NCBI GenBank assembly: GCA_016869235.1
Contig: VGER01000001.1
Coordinates: 54,596 to 118,595 of the forward strand
Direction: 5' to 3'
From: Alphaproteobacteria bacterium
GTDB lineage: Bacteria; Pseudomonadota; Alphaproteobacteria; UBA2966; CAIVPW01
Length of the DNA stretch: 64,000 nt
Shown: positions 45,801-54,800 of the stretch, in pieces
Position numbering within the stretch: position 1 is the stretch's first letter
Layout of the letters: each line of letters begins with the position of its first letter
Made by a program: the position numbers

Positions 45801-48800
45801 CCATCGCGTCGAACTGGGCGAGATCGACGCGGCCCTGCGCGCTTGCGGCGCCGCTGCGTGCACCGTGCTATGGCAAGGGGAGCTGCATGCCTTCGTCGAG
45901 GGGACGCCGAGCGCGGTACTTGCCGATTTGCGTGCGGCCTTGGCGGCTCGCTTGCCCACGTACGCCATTCCGGCGCACTTCCACTCCATCGCCGCGCTGC
46001 CCCGCAACCTCAATGACAAGGCCGATGCGGGTGCGCTAATCGCACAGCTGGTGGCCGGTGCCGGCGGCGTGACTGGGGCCCAGCCGGAATACCAGGCCGG
46101 CTGATGCAGCCTTCCTATGACGGCATTCGCTCCATCGTCTTGGATGCCCTCAAGACTCATTGCCTCGATCGCGCGCTCGATGTGGGCGCGCTCGACGCGC
46201 ACGTCGACCTTCTGCAGGCCGGGGTGCTCGACTCTTTCGGATTCCTTGACTTCGTCGAGGACGTGCAACAACGCACCGGCATCTCACTCGACCTTGAGCA
46301 GGTCGACGTCGGAGAACTCGCCACGATCGACAAGCTCATCCGCGGCGTACTGTGCGCCTCAGGAAAGTAGGGTGGACCGCGCTTCCATCTCCGCCCCCCA
46401 GCTCATCGTTTCGGGGACCTATCGCTCGGGCACCACTCTGGTCCAGAAGCGACTCGATGCGCACCGCTCATGCGCCGTGGTCATGCAGCCGGCCGTTCCA
46501 TTCTTTCGCATGCTGCGGGAGTGTCTGCATCGCGCCGGCGCGCCGGTGAGCGACCCGACTGGGCCGATGGGTATTGCGTTCCCGAACGAGCCGACCGCGC
46601 TCTCCGGGATGTTGCGCAGACTCGTCATTGGTGGCGCGGAAGTGCATCGGGCGATCAGTGATACTGCGACCTTGGCACGCTCGCAGGCTGAGCGCGGCGA
46701 CCGGGACGGGCTACAGCCCCGAATGGTCGACGCTTTGCGGACCCATCTGCGTCCTGGGACTGCGATGGAGGTGATCGAGGGGTTCTTCGCTGCGTTACGA
46801 GCGTATCGCGGTGCAGCCGCCGGGACCTGCATCGGGTTCAAGGATGTCTACATCCAAGAAATCATCGATGGGATGCTAGGCGCTGACGACCCGGATCTGC
46901 GCGTCATCCTGGTGTTGCGGGATCCTCGCGCCGTGCTTGCGTCGCGCAATTTTGGCGCCTTCAGGGGCGCGATCGACGGACCTAACCAACATCCCTTGCT
47001 GCTTGTCGCGCGTATGTGGACGTCCGCTGCGCGCTGGCAGCGTGCGCTGTTGCAGCGATATCCAGGCCGCGTCCACGCGTTGTCCTACGAGCAACTCGTC
47101 ACGCAGCGCCAAGCGACGATGGACGCGCTCTGGCGCTTCATCGGCGTCAACCCTGACGATGCGGGTGGCGATGAGACGTTGCGCTGCGAAAGCGGTCGGC
47201 CGTGGACTCGCAATTCGAGCTACTCGGAGTCCGGAGATGTCACGCGCTCCGATTGGCGGGCGGTCCTGCCGCGCGAGACGATCGGGGCGCTCGAGTTCCT
47301 GTGTGGTGACGACATGATTCGCCACGGCTATGAGCCCACCATGAATCTTGACGAGCGTCGCAAAGGGTTTTCCGCGTTTGCCGAGAGCGAGGATCGGCTG
47401 GTGCCTTGGACGCGTCTTCCCGACTTCATCCTGAACGAGAGGACGCGGCAGCGCGAACTCGCAGCGCGAGTAAGCGCGAGCGCCGCATGAGCACGATATG
47501 ACCCCGATGCCTCCCTCCACCATCGACGGCAAGAGCATCCTGATCACCGGAGGCACGGGGTCGTTCGGGCGTGCGATGGTGCACGCCCTGGTCACGCGGC
47601 TTAACCCCGCACGTGTGGTCATCTTCTCTCGCGACGAGCTCAAGCAGCATGAGATGCAGGTCGATCCGACGCTGCGCGACGCGCGCAATCTGCGCTACTT
47701 CATTGGCGATGTGCGTGACGCTGAACGCCTGGAGCTTGCGTTCCGCGGCGTGGACATCGTCATCCACGCGGCGGCGCTCAAGCAGGTGACGACCGCCGAG
47801 TACAATCCCTTTGAATGCATCCGTACAAACGTCCACGGCGCCGAGAATGTAGTGCGCGCCGCCATGCGCACAGGCGTGCAACGTGTGGTCGCGCTTTCGA
47901 CGGACAAGGCCGCGAACCCCATTAACCTCTATGGGGCCAGCAAGCTCGCTTCGGACAAGATCTTCGTTGCAGCCAAGTGGCTGGTCGGCCGTGCCGATCA
48001 TCCGCTGTTCGGAGTGGTCCGGTACGGCAACGTCGTGGGCTCGCGCGGGAGCGTCGTGCCTTTGTTCCGCAAGATGCTGCAGGAGGGCGCCACTAGCCTG
48101 CCGATCACCGATCCGCGCATGACCCGTTTCTGGATCACGCTCGATCAGGGCGTGCAGTTCGTGCTGTCATGCCTCGCGCAAATGCGGGGCGGCGAGATCT
48201 TCGTGCCGAAAATTCCGTCGATGAAGATGTCCGACCTTGCGCGCGCAATGGCGCCCGGCACCAAGACTCACATTACCGGCATACGTCCCGGCGAAAAGCT
48301 GCACGAGGTGATGATCACCGAGGAAGACGCGCGTATGACGGTAGAGCTGCCGGACCGGTACATCTTGCGCGCCAGCATGTTTGGCGAGGAGAGGCTAGGG
48401 TATCACCCCGATGAGCGCGTGGTTCCCGAAGACTTCTCCTATCGCAGCAACAACAACAAGCAGTGGCTGACAGAGGATGACTTCCGCACGATCCTCAGCG
48501 GCCTCGAGACCTACGCTCATGCCTAGGTCCGCAGAGGCGTCCGCTTTGCGGCGAAATGCCGCCGGTAGCGGGACAACAGTTGAGAGCGCCGCGTCGTTAC
48601 TCGGCGACCTGTTTCCGATCTGCAGGTCCATCACCGGCGACGGCGTTCGCAGAACGTTCAAGATTCTGCGCGACTTGGTCGACTTCCACGTGCGTGAGGT
48701 TGCGAGCGGCACAGTTTGTTTCGACTGGGTTGTTCCCGATGAATGGAACGTTCGTGACGCGTTTATCGCCACGGAGGATGGCCGTCGCGTCGTAGACTTC

Positions 48801-51800: not shown

Positions 51801-54800
51801 GCACAACGAGGAGAGGACCGTCGCCGCAGTAGTGCGGGCGGTTGCGCCGCACGGCGCTGCAATCGTGGTCGATGACGGTTCGGCCGATCGCACCGCGGAG
51901 TTCGCCGAAGCGGCCGGGGCACGCGTCGTTCATCACGCACGGAACCGCGGATATGACGACGCCCTGCAGAGCGGCTTCGAAGAGGCCGCCCGCATTGGCG
52001 CGGATGCGGCGGTGACCTTCGATGCGGACGGCCAGCACGATGCCGCCATCCTCGGTCGAGTCCTAGCACCGATCGCTACTGGGCAAGCGGACCTAGTCAT
52101 CGGCGTGCGCCCCAAAGCGGCGCGCATCAGCGAGCGGCTATTCAATCGCTACACGCGGGCCCGCTTCGCCGTGCCGGACATTCTTTGTGGCCTCAAGGCG
52201 TATCGAATGACGCTCTTTCACAGCCACGGGCGATTCGGGGCAGACGGATCTATCGGCACCGAGCTTGCGCTTGCCAGCCTGGCGCGTGGCGCAAGATTCC
52301 AACTCGTGGCCGTTCCGATCGCGCCCCGGGTGGGCAAGTCGCGATTCGGCTCCGCGTTGTGGGCAAACTGGCGCATCCTCAAAGCGCTACTCCGCGCGGT
52401 CCGCGGCCATACGAGCGGGCAGACTTTCCGGTGAAAGTAGTCGCGATCACGCAGGCGCGGATGACGTCGACGCGCCTTCCCGGCAAGGTGATGCTGGAGG
52501 TGGCCGGCCGGTCGCTGTTGGGGCACCACATCGATCGCGTGCGCCGCGCAGCAACGGTTGACGAGGTTGTTGTCGCAACAACCACCAATGCGTCGGATGA
52601 CGTGATCGCCGCGTGGTGCGATCGCGAAGAGGTCGCCGTATTCCGTGGCTCGGAGAATGATGTCTTGAGCCGCTACGCCGGCGCGGCTCGACGCCACGAC
52701 GCCGATGTGATCGTTCGCGTCACTTCGGACTGTCCTCTGATCGATCCGGGCGTGATCGACCGCACTGTGCGGGCCTTCGCAGCGGCAGCACTGGAGTGCG
52801 ATTACGCGAGCAACCGCATTGTCCAAACCTATCCCCGCGGCCTCGACACAGAAGTCGTGTGGCGGTCCGTATTGAACACGACGGACCAGGAGGTGAGTGA
52901 CCCTTCCGACCGCGAACATGTCACGCTGTTCGTGTGGCGCCAGCCTGAGCGCTTCCGTTTGGTCAACGTGTCCGCAGACGGCGACTACAGCAGGCACCGC
53001 TGGACCGTCGATACGCAGGATGACTACGAGCTGGTACGGCGCATTCTGGAAGAGCTGTATCCGCGCCGCCCCGACTTCACGTTCGCGGATTGCCTCGACT
53101 GCATCCGGCGGCACGCGGACTGGCCATCGATCAACGCGCACGTCCTGCAGAAGGAGATTCCGCCGCCGTCGGTGCCGCCAACGCGGTACAGGGTCCCCAG
53201 CCGTTGACTTCCGTGATCCCCAGCAAGGCCAGGAATGGCGAGGGGACGACGCTCGCGATGTTCGCGCAGCTCGCCCGGCGCTACTGGCGTACTTCGGTGG
53301 TGCTCATCCCCGCAGTCCTGGCGGTAAGCCTGCTCGAGGGCATCGGCCTGACTCTTGTGCTGCCGCTTCTCACGCTTATGCTCGATTCGGCGGCCTCCGA
53401 GCCCTCCGGCATAGAAGCCGGGGTTGACCGCATCCTGGGCTGGTTCGGCCTGTCCACAACCGTCGGCGCGGTGGTTGCGCTGATCCTCGCTACCATGGCC
53501 TTCAAGCTGTTCGGTGGCTTGGGCGTTAATTGGCTGGTTGCCGACGCTGGCGCGCGCATTGGCGCGGATATTCGCCGGCGGCTTGTCCGCGCCATGACCG
53601 CAGCCGACTGGAAGTACTTCTTGACGCTCGCCGGGGGTGACGCCGCGGCGGCAATGGGTACCGAGGTTCAGCGCGGCCAGAACGCGTTCATTGCCGGCAC
53701 CAAGCTGATCGCGGCAACCATGCGTGTCCTCGTCATTCTCGGCTTAGCGCTGGCCGTTTCCTGGCAGGTGACAGTCGCAGCGGCGTTGTTTGGCGGCGCC
53801 GTCGGCATCGGTCTGCGCGGCTTGGTGCGCATGACCGGAAATGCCGGCACGCGTCAGACGGAGTTGCAGGCTTCGCTATCCGCGCGCCTTGTCGACGGCA
53901 TCGCATCCATGAAGCCCATCAAGGCGATGGGCAGGGAGGCGCATCTCTCCGACGTCCTCGACCGGGACATTGCTCTCCTGGAGAAGGTGCGCCGGCGCCT
54001 CACCTTCCTCCTTACCGCGCTGCCCGCGCTCGTCGAGCCACTTACCGTCATGGCGCTCGCCCTCGGGCTGCTCGTAATGGTGGACATCGGCGGTGTGCGC
54101 ATCGAGTCGCTCGCCGTTCTGGCGCTGCTGTTCTCACGGGGCGTCGCATCGATGACCTCGATTCAGACCAGCTATCAAAGCATTGTGGCGAATACGGCCG
54201 GATACTGGTTCGTCGAGATGATGACGGCGCGCGGCGAGGAGTTGCGCGAGGAGGTCGGTGGTGCCGTTCTGCCGCCGTTGGCGTCGTCCATCCGCTTCGA
54301 GGGCGTTTCGCATGGACACGGCGAGCGCCCGATCTTGACCGACGCGACCTTTGAGATGCCGGCTCACCAGCTCACTGTGGTCACAGGTGCGTCGGGCGCT
54401 GGCAAGACCACGATGATCGACCTGATCGTCGGCTTGTACCCGCCCGGTGCAGGCGAAATCCTGGTTGACGGCGCTTCGCTCGCGGCCAGCGATCGGGCAG
54501 CTTGGCGCCAGCAGATCGGCTACGTGCCGCAGGACACGATCCTCTTCAACGACACTATCTACAACAATATCGCCGTGGGCGACGCCAAGATCAGCCGTCA
54601 TCAAGTGGAGTGGGCGCTGAGTGTTGCGGGCGCAGGCGAGTTCATCGCTGCCATGGACAAAGGCGTCGAGAGCTTGGTCGGCGAGCGCGGTGGCATCCTC
54701 TCGGGCGGACAGCGCCAACGCATCGCCCTCGCGCGCGCCCTGGCGCGCAACCCGACACTGCTGATTCTCGATGAGGCTACGGCCGCGCTGGATCAGGCCA

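What the first reader, a model, noticed from the sequence alone, without database searches (positions are those of the whole stretch)
47498..53207. Partial nonulosonic-acid pathway: PseB-like dehydratase, NeuB-family synthase, cytidylyltransferase, GNAT and RmlD-like reductase
A pathway is predicted for a CMP-activated 5,7-diamino nonulosonic acid (pseudaminic or legionaminic type). A PseB/CapD-type UDP-GlcNAc 4,6-dehydratase, a NeuB/PseI/LegI-family synthase with a SAF domain, a PseF/NeuA-like cytidylyltransferase, a PseH-like GNAT (62723-63271), the AAC(3)-like acetyltransferase and a methyltransferase are linked in one translationally coupled operon. No PseC/LegC aminotransferase and no PseG/LegG hydrolase is visible inside the window. 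Either they lie beyond 64 kb, or the RmlD-like reductase, the DUF4910 protein and the three Gfo/Idh/MocA oxidoreductases substitute. That would imply a variant route or a different 9-carbon sugar.
Basis: partly seen in the sequence, partly recalled or inferred. Interest (0 to 1): 0.55.

Follow-up and report, generated by a model that had tools for sequence, protein, structure and literature searches.

The report
Aminotransferase-free nonulosonic acid sugar cassette
This stretch of a freshwater alphaproteobacterial surface-polysaccharide locus carries a widely conserved five-gene cassette that probably makes a sialic-acid-like nine-carbon sugar with a hydroxyl where pseudaminic acid has its second amino group, a sugar type so far reported once, with no pathway found for it in the paper library searched.

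Summary
The genes are real and at the stated coordinates. All are translationally coupled.

No aminotransferase gene was found among the ORFs scanned (about 7-64 kb). A DegT gene lies about 300 bp past the window end. It sits in a recurring Gfo/DegT/GNAT/2-epimerase-like module that resembles WbpB/E/D/I, so it is probably not PseC.

The NeuB belongs to a tight clade (52-72% identity across many phyla) that fails both the PseI and NeuB equivalog cut-offs. In 80 species loci it is flanked by the RmlD-like gene (65 of 75 directly upstream) and by PseB (64 of 80). A cytidylyltransferase is usually nearby, and either a small GT2 (33 loci) or a GT4 (27 loci) follows, never both. Half of the fully flanked loci have no aminotransferase.

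Best reading (about 50%): UDP-GlcNAc is converted to the 4-keto sugar, reduced to UDP-6-deoxy-L-AltNAc, released, condensed with PEP and CMP-activated. The product would be a 5-acylamido-3,5,9-trideoxy nonulosonic acid, the type reported from Fusobacterium nucleatum 25586. DUF4910, the AAC(3)-like enzyme, the DltA-like enzyme and the carrier protein would swap the N5 acyl group.

This is a new variant of a known kind and rests entirely on in-silico inference.

The parts
42991..43665 (-). SAM methyltransferase of the 'pseudaminic acid biosynthesis-associated methylase' family, divergently transcribed
   Evidence: TIGR03587 scores 157.5 bits against a cut-off of 112.05. Methyltransf_11 hit.
43862..44596 (+). 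AAC(3)-like aminosugar N-acyltransferase
   Evidence: Antibiotic_NAT 135.8 bits. Scores are far below the cut-offs of the resistance-enzyme models. It is adjacent to the AMP-binding and carrier genes here and in L011, L012 and L013/L017.
44593..46104 (+). DltA-like amino-acid adenylating enzyme
   Evidence: AMP-binding 212 bits. Amino-acid adenylation domain 296 bits (cut-off 317) and DltA models 231-237 bits.
46104..46370 (+). Small carrier protein (DltC/ACP-like)
   Evidence: PP-binding 24.1 bits. Weak DltC hit at 25.9 bits.
46372..47490 (+). Sulfotransferase
   Evidence: Sulfotransfer_3 51.3 bits. The gene call comes from identical contigs. CysD and CysNC for PAPS supply lie at 27356-30110.
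47498..48526 (+). PseB, the inverting UDP-GlcNAc 4,6-dehydratase
   Evidence: TIGR03589 scores 485.6 bits, above the cut-off of 407.75. 395 bits to 2gn4, against 211 bits to Pen 6bwc. The STDKA and YGASK motifs are present.
48519..49874 (+). DUF4910/DUF2172/HTH_47 protein (CA_C2195 / Cj1295 family); proposed N5 de-acylase or acyl-swap enzyme
   Evidence: Pfam 286.7, 109.9 and 56.6 bits. PDB 3k9t E=6e-102. Literature read.
49871..50707 (+). RmlD-family NAD(P)H reductase; proposed C4 ketoreductase acting on the PseB product
   Evidence: RmlD_sub_bind 149.5 bits. rmlD equivalog 138 bits, below the cut-off of 224. Best PDB hits are MAT2B and RmlD at about 73-79 bits. The GSGLLG, STD and YGRSK motifs are present. 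It lies directly upstream of the NeuB in 65 of 75 loci.
50704..51771 (+). NeuB-family nonulosonic acid synthase of a distinct, highly conserved clade ('NeuB-A')
   Evidence: NeuB 223.6 bits plus SAF. Below the NeuB and PseI cut-offs. 148, 139 and 125 bits to N. meningitidis NeuB, C. jejuni PseI and SpsE. Orthologues are 52-72% identical across many phyla. 33% identical to the second NeuB of the locus.
51772..52434 (+). Small soluble GT2 (DPM1/GtrB/ArnC-like catalytic domain, no TM helix); proposed functional stand-in for PseG, role unresolved
   Evidence: Glycos_transf_2 67.7 bits and PpgS 83.5 bits. Weak PDB hits to DPMS, ArnC and GpgS. The DADGQH and R..SRF motifs are conserved in 34 orthologues. 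It is mutually exclusive with a 375-aa GT4 at the same position.
52431..53207 (+). SpsF-type cytidylyltransferase (CMP activation)
   Evidence: CTP_transf_3 94.5 bits. 135 bits to PDB 6oew 'cytidylyltransferase'. No PseF hit.
53204..54970 (+). Fused TMD-NBD ABC exporter (MsbA/PglK/HepA-like)
   Evidence: ABC_tran 107 bits and ABC_membrane. HepA-family 249.7 bits. A homologue lies near the cassette in 10 loci.
55116..57067 (+). Two Gfo/Idh/MocA-type oxidoreductases (55116-56078 and 56063/56114-57067)
   Evidence: GFO_IDH_MocA 23.7 bits (just under the gathering score) and 40.9 bits.
57089..59834 (+). DltB-like MBOAT (57089-58618) and a membrane-anchored unknown protein (58650-59834); a possible O-acylation pair
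   Evidence: MBOAT 104.5 bits. The only NCBIfam hit is DltB at 154 bits, below the cut-off of 375. The second protein has no family hit and an N-terminal hydrophobic segment.
59827..62723 (+). Two unknown proteins (59827-61212 and 61209-62723); candidate ulosonic-acid transferases
   Evidence: Weak hits to TIGR04396 and the BFO_1060 family. Weak hit to Capsule_synth (KpsS/C). Weak GT-B-type PDB matches.
62723..64000 (+). GNAT (62723-63271) and the start of a Gfo/Idh/MocA gene (63290 onward); the first two genes of a Gfo-DegT-GNAT-epimerase-like module that continues past the window
   Evidence: Acetyltransf_3 72.3 bits and GFO_IDH_MocA 51.9 bits. Continuation seen in L007/L094, which is 100% identical over 2001 bp.

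Best explanation
The six coupled genes at 47498-53207 encode a self-contained, aminotransferase-independent route to a CMP-activated nine-carbon ulosonic acid.

- Step 2 (inferred): the RmlD-family reductase reduces the C4 keto group. This replaces the PseC and PseH steps and gives UDP-6-deoxy-L-AltNAc or its C4 epimer.
- Step 3 (inferred, weakest): the small soluble GT2 releases the free sugar in place of PseG.
- Step 4 (family-level homology): the NeuB-A synthase condenses the sugar with PEP to give a 5-acetamido-3,5,9-trideoxy-non-2-ulosonic acid with a 7-OH.
- Step 5: the SpsF-type cytidylyltransferase makes the CMP-sugar.
- Tailoring (inferred from the Cj1295 precedent): DUF4910 removes the N5 acetyl group. 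The AAC(3)-like enzyme then re-acylates N5 with an amino acid that the DltA-like enzyme has loaded on the carrier protein. Methylation and sulfation may follow.

The sugar would then be built into a sulfated, carbamoylated surface polysaccharide exported through the ABC and YjbFGH/Wza machinery of the same locus.
For: - PseB passes its equivalog cut-off and resembles H. pylori PseB far more than Pen.
- The reductase keeps the GxxGxxG, STD and YxxxK motifs. It is RmlD/MAT2B-like and no Pal-like structure appeared among its PDB matches. No rmlABC genes were found among the ORFs scanned.
- NeuB-A fails the PseI and NeuB cut-offs and is equidistant from the solved NeuB, PseI and SpsE structures. 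Yet it is 52-72% identical to orthologues in many phyla.
- In 80 species loci the RmlD-like gene occurs in 69, PseB in 64, a cytidylyltransferase in most, and the small GT2 in 38.
- In the 51 loci with at least 6 kb on both sides: PseB 49, RmlD-like directly upstream 45, a cytidylyltransferase 46, any DegT or class-III aminotransferase 26, none 25.
- Annotated examples with no aminotransferase in the stretch examined: Photobacterium frigidiphilum and Anaerolinea thermolimosa, where the genes next to the cassette were scanned against Pfam, and a Maritalea myrionectae plasmid, read from PLSDB's incomplete gene table.
- GT2 (33 loci) and a GT4 (27 loci) occupy the slot after NeuB-A and never co-occur. 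So five conserved genes match five required steps.
- The predicted intermediate and product types co-occur in nature. [quoted passage not shown]
- A DUF4910 family member, Cj1295, is required for the 5-N-(di-O-methylglyceroyl) form of pseudaminic acid. Its authors proposed that it removes the C5 acetamido group (PMC3068675).
- The DUF4910 neighbourhood with NeuB/SpsE, SpsF, a dehydratase, an N-acyltransferase and ACP is documented (PMC4000134).
Against: - No biochemistry exists for any enzyme of this clade.
- I could not link the cassette to F. nucleatum itself. The one 'Fusobacteriaceae' locus has its closest relatives in Campylobacterota.
- About half of the well-flanked loci do carry a DegT or class-III aminotransferase, sometimes between PseB and the reductase (L013, L031, L036, L045, L074). 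The reductase is kept there too, which the simple 'reductase replaces PseC' model does not explain.
- The GT2 retains DPM1/GtrB/ArnC-type donor and phosphate-acceptor motifs, so it may be a true polyprenyl-phosphate glycosyltransferase. The alternative GT4 also looks like an ordinary glycosyltransferase. In that case the sugar-releasing step is unassigned.
- Aminotransferases could be encoded elsewhere in these genomes.
- The stereochemistry of the reduction and of the condensation cannot be read from sequence.
Confidence: 0.5

Rival explanations
1. The locus makes a 5,7-diamino (pseudaminic-type) acid after all. PseB's product would be aminated by the DegT just past the window and acetylated by the GNAT at 62723-63271. 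The GT-B protein after DegT would release the sugar, NeuB-A or NeuB-B would condense it, and a CTP_transf_3 enzyme would activate it. The RmlD-like enzyme would serve another sugar.
For: - DegT, a GNAT and a GT-B-fold protein lie within 3 kb of the window end on an identical contig.
- The divergent methyltransferase passes the 'Pse biosynthesis-associated methylase' cut-off.
- About half of the related loci have an aminotransferase nearby.
- PseB is genuine.
Against: - DegT scores 194 bits on PseC against a cut-off of 423.5, and scores the same on ArnB.
- The GNAT scores 33.6 on PseH against 93.1. NeuB-A scores 216.5 on PseI against 340.25. The cassette's cytidylyltransferase (52431-53207) gives no PseF hit, and the only one that does (69028-69753, beyond the window) scores 32.6 against 205.7.
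- The GT-B protein most resembles UDP-GlcNAc 2-epimerases and the WbpI-type epimerase. PseG was not among the 50 matches listed.
- DegT always travels with a Gfo dehydrogenase, which the Pse route does not need. That pairing is the WbpB/E/D/I signature.
- The RmlD-NeuB-A adjacency is conserved even where no aminotransferase is present.
Confidence: 0.2
2. PseB, the reductase and the GT2 form a separate three-step branch. It would make UDP-6-deoxy-L-HexNAc and load it on undecaprenyl phosphate, in the manner of ArnC or GtrB, for direct use in the polymer. NeuB-A and the cytidylyltransferase would make an ulosonic acid from a different aldose supplied from elsewhere.
For: - The GT2 keeps the DADGQH and R..SRF motifs typical of polyprenyl-phosphate glycosyltransferases. 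Its best PDB hits are DPMS and ArnC.
- In Anaerolinea the cassette is followed by two PMT_2 (GT-C) proteins. By my own knowledge, GT-C enzymes use lipid-phosphate sugar donors.
- L-6dAltNAc itself is a polymer constituent in F. nucleatum 25586.
Against: - No NeuC, other sugar-releasing enzyme or alternative aldose source is conserved with NeuB-A.
- The reductase overlaps the NeuB-A start codon here and is its immediate neighbour in 65 of 75 loci.
- The GT2 has no transmembrane segment.
- This branch and the main model are not mutually exclusive.
Confidence: 0.15
3. The dehydratase and the SDR work as a Pen/Pal-type pair, as in Bacillus thuringiensis. Together they would make the 4-keto intermediate, so the SDR would not be a terminal reductase.
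For: A PseB-like protein is followed by a second SDR. The Pen/Pal precedent comes from my own knowledge of Li et al. 2015 and Delvaux et al. 2018; I did not read those papers here.
Against: - The dehydratase scores 395 bits to true PseB (2gn4) against 211 bits to Pen (6bwc). It also passes the PseB equivalog cut-off.
- The SDR's PDB matches are RmlD and MAT2B only. No Pal-like entry appears.
Confidence: 0.05

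Closest known systems
CMP-pseudaminic acid pathway (PseB, PseC, PseH, PseG, PseI, PseF) of Campylobacter jejuni and Helicobacter pylori
   Same: - It has the same first enzyme; PseB is at equivalog level here.
- It follows the same logic: dehydrate, modify C4, release the sugar, condense with PEP through a NeuB-family enzyme, then activate with CMP.
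- A Pse-associated methylase family member is next door.
   Different: - There is no PseC or PseH at equivalog level. An RmlD-family reductase takes their place.
- There is no PseG. A small GT2 (or a GT4 in other phyla) takes its place.
- The synthase and the cytidylyltransferase belong to other clades.
- The predicted product carries 7-OH instead of 7-NHAc.
Fusobacterium nucleatum ATCC 25586 O-antigen sugars: L-6dAltNAc and 5-acetimidoylamino-3,5,9-trideoxy-L-glycero-L-gluco-non-2-ulosonic acid (Vinogradov et al. 2017, cited in PMC7371886 and PMC13014188)
   Same: - These sugars have exactly the chemistry expected from PseB, a C4 reductase and a NeuB-type condensation.
- N5 carries a non-acetyl group, which matches an N5 acyl-swap module.
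   Different: - I found no paper in the library searched that gives the Fusobacterium biosynthetic genes.
- I could not show that F. nucleatum has this cassette.
- The N5 substituent here is predicted to be an aminoacyl group, not acetimidoyl.
DUF4910 neighbourhoods: C. acetobutylicum CA_C2186-2199 (Das et al. 2014, PMC4000134) and C. jejuni Cj1293-Cj1300 with Cj1295 (Hitchen et al. 2010, PMC3068675)
   Same: - The DUF4910+DUF2172+HTH_47 architecture is the same (345 bits to 3k9t).
- The partners are the same: NeuB/SpsE, SpsF-type nucleotidyltransferase, PseB-like dehydratase, AAC(3)-type N-acyltransferase, carrier protein and methyltransferase.
   Different: - In C. jejuni the module decorates a normal 5,7-diamino pseudaminic acid and PseC is adjacent.
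- Here the acyl donor is made by a DltA-like adenylating enzyme. Maritalea has a HAD-IIIC phosphatase there instead. Calling that protein FkbH-like, and assigning the same enzyme type to C. jejuni, rests on my own knowledge.
UDP-L-RhaNAc / UDP-L-QuiNAc route (WbvB dehydratase + RmlD-like WbvR reductase + WbvD), recalled from memory and not tested here
   Same: A PseB-related inverting 4,6-dehydratase is followed by an RmlD-family C4 reductase acting on a UDP-HexNAc.
   Different: - WbvB is FnlA-type, whereas this dehydratase scores 226 bits on FnlA against a cut-off of 730.
- That product is used directly as a glycosyl donor and is not condensed with PEP.
WbpB/WbpE/WbpD/WbpI pathway to UDP-ManNAc3NAcA (for the module that starts at 62723)
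   Same: It has a Gfo/Idh/MocA dehydrogenase, a DegT aminotransferase, an N-acetyltransferase and a 2-epimerase-fold protein in one block. That block recurs in at least 9 other loci.
   Different: - The acetyltransferase is a GNAT. By my recollection WbpD is a hexapeptide-repeat enzyme.
- The epimerase-like protein has no sequence-level family hit.
- No WbpA-type UDP-GlcNAc dehydrogenase was identified.

Membership tests
CMP-pseudaminic acid pathway | PseB: inverting UDP-GlcNAc 4,6-dehydratase | tested here: met
   TIGR03589 scores 485.6 bits against a cut-off of 407.75. 395 bits to 2gn4.
CMP-pseudaminic acid pathway | PseC: DegT-type C4 aminotransferase | tested here: not met
   No DegT among the roughly 50 window ORFs scanned between about 7 and 64 kb. 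The DegT just beyond the window scores 194 bits against a cut-off of 423.5 and sits in a WbpB/E/D/I-like module.
CMP-pseudaminic acid pathway | PseH: N4 acetyltransferase | tested here: not met
   The GNAT at 62723-63271 scores 33.6 bits on TIGR03585 against a cut-off of 93.1.
CMP-pseudaminic acid pathway | PseG: UDP-sugar hydrolase (GT-B) | tested here: not met
   No PseG hit in any protein scanned against NCBIfam. The GT-B protein beyond the window is 2-epimerase-like. The slot after NeuB-A is filled by a GT2.
CMP-pseudaminic acid pathway | PseI: pseudaminic acid synthase | tested here: not met
   TIGR03586 scores 216.5 bits against a cut-off of 340.25. 139 bits to C. jejuni PseI 8h2c, no better than to NeuB.
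CMP-pseudaminic acid pathway | PseF: CMP-Pse synthetase | tested here: not met
   The protein at 52431-53207 gives no TIGR03584 hit. Its best hits are weak KdsB-type models.
NeuB / nonulosonic acid synthase superfamily | NeuB TIM-barrel domain plus C-terminal SAF domain, with metal-binding His motifs | tested here: met
   PF03102 223.6 bits and PF08666 29.3 bits. The SDH and EKH motifs are present and fall in columns invariant across 25 clade members.
Legionaminic / neuraminic acid pathways | LegB or a NeuC/LegG hydrolysing 2-epimerase, and a NeuB/LegI-level synthase | tested here: not met
   LegB model 56.6 bits against a cut-off of 475. NeuB model 246 bits against 399.65. No significant Epimerase_2 match in the window; the only trace is 17.7 bits against a gathering score of 30.6 in the protein at 61209-62723. 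The second NeuB beyond the window scores 327.5 against 399.65.
dTDP-L-rhamnose RmlD | Equivalog-level RmlD accompanied by rmlA, rmlB and rmlC | tested here: not met
   TIGR01214 scores 138.4 bits against a cut-off of 224.05. No RmlA, RmlB or RmlC among the ORFs scanned.
DUF4910 (CA_C2195 / Cj1295) polysaccharide-modification neighbourhood | DUF4910+DUF2172+HTH_47 protein embedded among a NeuB/SpsE, an SpsF-type transferase, a dehydratase, an aminosugar N-acyltransferase, a carrier protein and a methylase | tested here: met
   The definition comes from PMC4000134.
3,5,9-trideoxy nonulosonic acid (F. nucleatum 25586 type) | The product has 5-N, 7-OH and 9-deoxy; L-6dAltNAc is the precursor | not testable with these tools
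   This is a chemical identity and needs MS or NMR. Only the gene logic and the literature structure support it.

The most novel reading that the evidence does not exclude
The PseB / RmlD-like / NeuB-A / (GT2 or GT4) / cytidylyltransferase cassette is the undescribed biosynthetic pathway for 7-hydroxy-9-deoxy (3,5,9-trideoxy) nonulosonic acids. Because the cassette occurs in hundreds of species from many bacterial phyla and at least one archaeal MAG, this sugar class would be a major, overlooked branch of microbial 'sialic acids' rather than a Fusobacterium curiosity. A GT-A or GT-B glycosyltransferase would have been recruited as the sugar-releasing enzyme by non-orthologous displacement of PseG.
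Probability: 0.4. Interest if true: 0.7.

Novelty: new variant of a known kind. Interest (0 to 1): 0.52.

Why it matters
Nonulosonic acids shape how bacterial surfaces are seen by phages, immune lectins and antibodies. One review-type source read here states that only one trideoxy (mono-amino) member has been reported, and I found no paper giving its genes.

If this cassette makes that sugar class, three things follow:
- An orphan sugar gains a pathway.
- Genome-based prediction of surface-sugar type, which currently calls these genes 'N-acetylneuraminate synthase', would need a new category.
- A short list of cultured carriers becomes available for direct chemical testing.

The cassette also gives a testable role to the DUF4910 / AAC(3)-like / carrier-protein module as an N5 acyl-swap device.

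Tried and rejected
- An exact-protein look-up of the GNAT with the wrong start found nothing. The 504-aa neighbour worked.
I got round this through a homology search on the unknown 331-aa protein.
- I tried to tie the cassette to Fusobacterium through the one 'Fusobacteriaceae' MAG locus. Its closest relatives are Sulfurimonas, Poseidonibacter and other Campylobacterota, so no link was obtained.
- Full-text searches for a described pathway found nothing relevant. The terms were nonulosonic+trideoxy+7-hydroxy, nonulosonic+PseB+ketoreductase, and nonulosonic+dTDP-4-dehydrorhamnose reductase. The only paper returned concerns the B. subtilis sps genes.
- The Pen/Pal two-enzyme idea was rejected on PDB scores.
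- Genuine RmlD was rejected on the cut-off and on the absence of rmlABC among the ORFs scanned.
- 'PseC lies just beyond the window' was downgraded after the structure model of the neighbouring unknown (pLDDT 94) matched 2-epimerases, and after the Gfo-DegT-GNAT-unknown block proved to be a recurring unit.
- A single-sequence AlphaFold model of the GT2 was too poor to use (pLDDT 52.6).
- The unknown 331-aa protein has no sequence-level PDB match.

Full report
**What is there**

The window is high-GC (about 65%). From about 20.8 kb to its end, and beyond, it is one long surface-polysaccharide locus. A CcrM-type methyltransferase lies at 7023-8201. By my own knowledge that type is characteristic of Alphaproteobacteria. 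NCBI names the exact NeuB protein (MBM3506216.1) as coming from an Alphaproteobacteria MAG, and identical contigs come from lake metagenomes.

The interval 47498-53207 holds six co-directional genes whose starts and stops overlap or nearly touch:
- PseB, 47498-48526
- a DUF4910/DUF2172/HTH_47 protein, 48519-49874
- an RmlD-family SDR, 49871-50707
- a NeuB+SAF synthase, 50704-51771
- a small GT2, 51772-52434
- a CTP_transf_3 cytidylyltransferase, 52431-53207

Upstream in the same coupled array are an AAC(3)-like N-acyltransferase, a DltA-like adenylating enzyme, an 88-aa carrier protein and a sulfotransferase (43862-47490). Downstream are:
- an ABC exporter
- two Gfo/Idh/MocA proteins
- a DltB-like MBOAT
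- three unknown proteins
- a GNAT
- a third Gfo gene, cut by the window end

The methyltransferase at 42991-43665 passes the 'Pse-associated methylase' cut-off but lies on the opposite strand.

**Check of the observation**

Four details are wrong or loose.
- The GT2 was missed.
- The GNAT of the title is outside the interval.
- The methyltransferase is not in the operon.
- The 'PseF-like' and 'PseH-like' labels do not hold at family level.

PseB is the only enzyme of the six-step pseudaminic acid route that passes its NCBIfam equivalog cut-off (485.6 against 407.75). The synthase fails both NeuB (246 against 399.65) and PseI (216.5 against 340.25). It is equally distant from solved NeuB, PseI and SpsE structures (148, 139 and 125 bits).

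**Beyond the window**

A Logan contig that is 100% identical over the last 2001 bp continues the locus. After the third Gfo gene come:
- a DegT aminotransferase (PseC model 194 against 423.5; ArnB model 195)
- an unknown 331-aa protein
- a CTP_transf_3 gene and a GT2
- a second NeuB, 33% identical to the first; its NeuB model score is 327.5 against 399.65
- another CTP_transf_3 gene
- an unknown protein, a PIG-L deacetylase, a FemAB-like acyltransferase and more glycosyltransferases

I modelled the 331-aa unknown with an alignment of 12 homologues (pLDDT 94). Foldseek placed it with UDP-GlcNAc 2-epimerases, including NeuC and the WbpI-type UDP-GlcNAc3NAcA 2-epimerase (probability 1.0, TM 0.62-0.69). 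The block Gfo-DegT-GNAT-this protein recurs as a unit in at least nine other loci. It therefore looks like a WbpB/E/D/I-type pathway for a 2,3-diacetamido sugar, and the DegT is probably not PseC.

**Comparative genomics**

The synthase ('NeuB-A') has thousands of relatives. The best 120 are 66-100% identical to it. A scan of one genome per species returned at least 550 confirmed loci. The 80 best (52-70% identity) span:
- Alpha-, Beta- and Gammaproteobacteria
- Chloroflexota
- Acidobacteriota
- Verrucomicrobiota
- Planctomycetota
- Gemmatimonadota
- Bdellovibrionota
- Bacteroidota
- Desulfovibrio
- a CPR bacterium
- a Methanomicrobiales MAG

I searched these loci by tblastn with all proteins of the window and its extension. 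I also clustered their ORFs all-against-all. The results:
- The RmlD-like gene is present in 69 of 80 loci. It lies within 300 bp upstream of NeuB-A in 65 of the 75 loci that have at least 1 kb of upstream sequence.
- PseB is present in 64 of 80.
- An SpsF-type cytidylyltransferase is present in 46 and a NeuA-type in 25.
- The slot immediately after NeuB-A holds either the small GT2 (33 loci) or a 375-aa GT4 (27 loci), never both.
- Among the 51 loci with at least 6 kb on both sides, 26 have a DegT or class-III aminotransferase and 25 have none.

Three examples were annotated.
- Photobacterium frigidiphilum: Wza-Wzc-PseB-CTP-RmlD-like-NeuB-A-GT2-acetyltransferase-Wzx-GT4.
- Anaerolinea thermolimosa: MTase-PseB-RmlD-like-NeuB-A-GT4-PMT_2-PMT_2-CTP.
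- A Maritalea myrionectae plasmid: pseB ... epimerase/dehydratase-family SDR, a HAD-IIIC phosphatase, an SDR, DUF4910, NeuB and GT2, with no aminotransferase listed in PLSDB's (incomplete) gene table for 32 kb.

The DUF4910, AAC(3), adenylating-enzyme and carrier genes, the class-III aminotransferase, and the Gfo-DegT-GNAT-epimerase-like block are accessory modules. They attach to this core in only some lineages.

**Mechanism**

Five conserved genes fit five steps of a pseudaminic-acid-like route in which amination and N-acetylation at C4 are replaced by reduction.
- PseB gives the 4-keto-6-deoxy-L-arabino intermediate.
- The RmlD-family enzyme would reduce C4 to give UDP-6-deoxy-L-AltNAc or its C4 epimer. 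It has intact GxxGxxG, STD and YGRSK motifs. Its closest solved relatives are RmlD and MAT2B.
- A glycosyltransferase-fold protein (GT2 or GT4) would release the sugar.
- NeuB-A would add PEP.
- The cytidylyltransferase would activate the product.

The product would be a 5-acylamido-3,5,9-trideoxy-non-2-ulosonic acid with a 7-hydroxyl.

This is not hypothetical chemistry. The O-antigen of F. nucleatum ATCC 25586 contains both L-6dAltNAc and 5-acetimidoylamino-3,5,9-trideoxy-L-glycero-L-gluco-non-2-ulosonic acid. PMC7371886 describes it as the one trideoxy instance reported. The gluco configuration is the C4 epimer of the pseudaminic manno configuration, and C4 is the centre set by the synthase. 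That reasoning is my own, and it would fit a separate NeuB clade.

For tailoring there is a precedent in C. jejuni. Cj1295, a DUF4910-family protein, is required for the 5-N-(2,3-di-O-methylglyceroyl) form of pseudaminic acid. Its authors proposed that it cleaves the C5 acetamido group. Das et al. documented the conserved DUF4910 neighbourhood.

In this window the acyl donor is predicted to be an aminoacyl carrier protein, because the adenylating enzyme scores 296 bits on the amino-acid adenylation model and 231-237 bits on the DltA models.

**Weak points**

- The sugar-releasing step is unassigned in a strict sense. The GT2 keeps motifs typical of polyprenyl-phosphate glycosyltransferases (DADGQH and R..SRF). 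The GT4 that replaces it looks like an ordinary GT4.
- Some loci have a DegT or class-III aminotransferase inside the core yet keep the reductase. Its role may therefore be more than a simple substitute for PseC.
- I could not examine whole genomes for unlinked pseC, pseH or pseG genes.
- I could not show the cassette in F. nucleatum.
- No paper in the searchable library describes this pathway. The library does not cover most subscription journals.

**Verdict**

This is a real, coherent nonulosonic acid cassette. It is not a standard pseudaminic or legionaminic pathway. It is best read as a widespread aminotransferase-independent variant that gives a 7-hydroxy, 9-deoxy acid with a remodelled N5 acyl group. 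I put confidence in that reading at about 0.5.

The cassette sits in a large locus that also encodes:
- sulfation: CysD, CysNC and a sulfotransferase
- carbamoylation
- a Dlt-like acylation set
- a second NeuB cassette
- YjbFGH/Wza-type export

I class it as a new variant of a known kind, of moderate interest. It is directly testable in several cultured carriers.

Noticed in passing
window 62723-64000, continuing in L007/L094 5374-8689 (equivalent to window 63290-66605): A GNAT / Gfo/Idh/MocA / DegT / unknown 331-aa block recurs as a unit next to the NeuB-A cassette in at least 9 other species loci. The unknown protein models with pLDDT 94 as a UDP-GlcNAc 2-epimerase-like GT-B fold. The block looks like a WbpB/E/D/I-type pathway.
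   Followed up: partly
L007/L094 8721-15100 (equivalent to window 66637-73016): A second nonulosonic cassette lies here: CTP_transf_3, GT2, a NeuB only 33% identical to the first, and another CTP_transf_3. It is followed by an unknown 452-aa protein, a PIG-L deacetylase and a FemAB-like Acetyltransf_6 protein. The last two could form a second N-acyl swap system.
   Followed up: partly
window 44593-46370 and 57089-59834: A Dlt-like set is split in two parts of the operon: a DltA-like ligase with a DltC-like carrier, and a DltB-like MBOAT with a membrane-anchored 394-aa unknown protein. This could mean aminoacyl esterification of the polysaccharide in a Gram-negative bacterium.
   Followed up: no
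window 27356-30110, 46372-47490 and 34815-36650: CysD and a fused CysN/CysC (PAPS supply) occur with a sulfotransferase inside the sugar operon. A NodU/CmcH-type carbamoyltransferase is also present. Together they predict a sulfated and carbamoylated polymer.
   Followed up: no
window 20873-27278: Export genes of the YjbEFGH / group-4 capsule type: YjbF on the minus strand, a 982-aa protein that combines Wza-like Poly_export/SLBB domains with GfcC domains, and a 947-aa YjbH.
   Followed up: no
loci L031-L092 (27 loci), immediately downstream of NeuB-A; for example L091 11098-12237: A 375-aa GT4 occupies the position taken by the small GT2 in proteobacterial loci. The two never co-occur (27 vs 33 loci), which looks like non-orthologous displacement.
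   Followed up: partly
loci L011, L012, L013, L036, L041, L043, L064, L073, L087: A class-III (Aminotran_3) aminotransferase is a frequent accessory gene of the cassette. It lies either between the cytidylyltransferase and the reductase or next to the AAC(3)-ligase-carrier trio. Its substrate is unknown, and it is absent from this window.
   Followed up: no
window 59827-62723: Two unknown proteins of 461 and 504 aa have only faint similarity to the TIGR04396 / BFO_1060 families and to KpsS/KpsC Capsule_synth. They are candidates for the ulosonic-acid transferases.
   Followed up: no
window 7023-8201 (-), 13610-15364 (+) and 16252-19828 (+): Outside the sugar locus: a CcrM-type DNA methyltransferase with a RAMA domain, a DUF6065 protein next to a JmjC/cupin protein, a 623-aa TPR protein (PEP-CTERM PrsT-like) and an esterase-like protein. 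The last two genes were missed by a simple GC3 filter.
   Followed up: no
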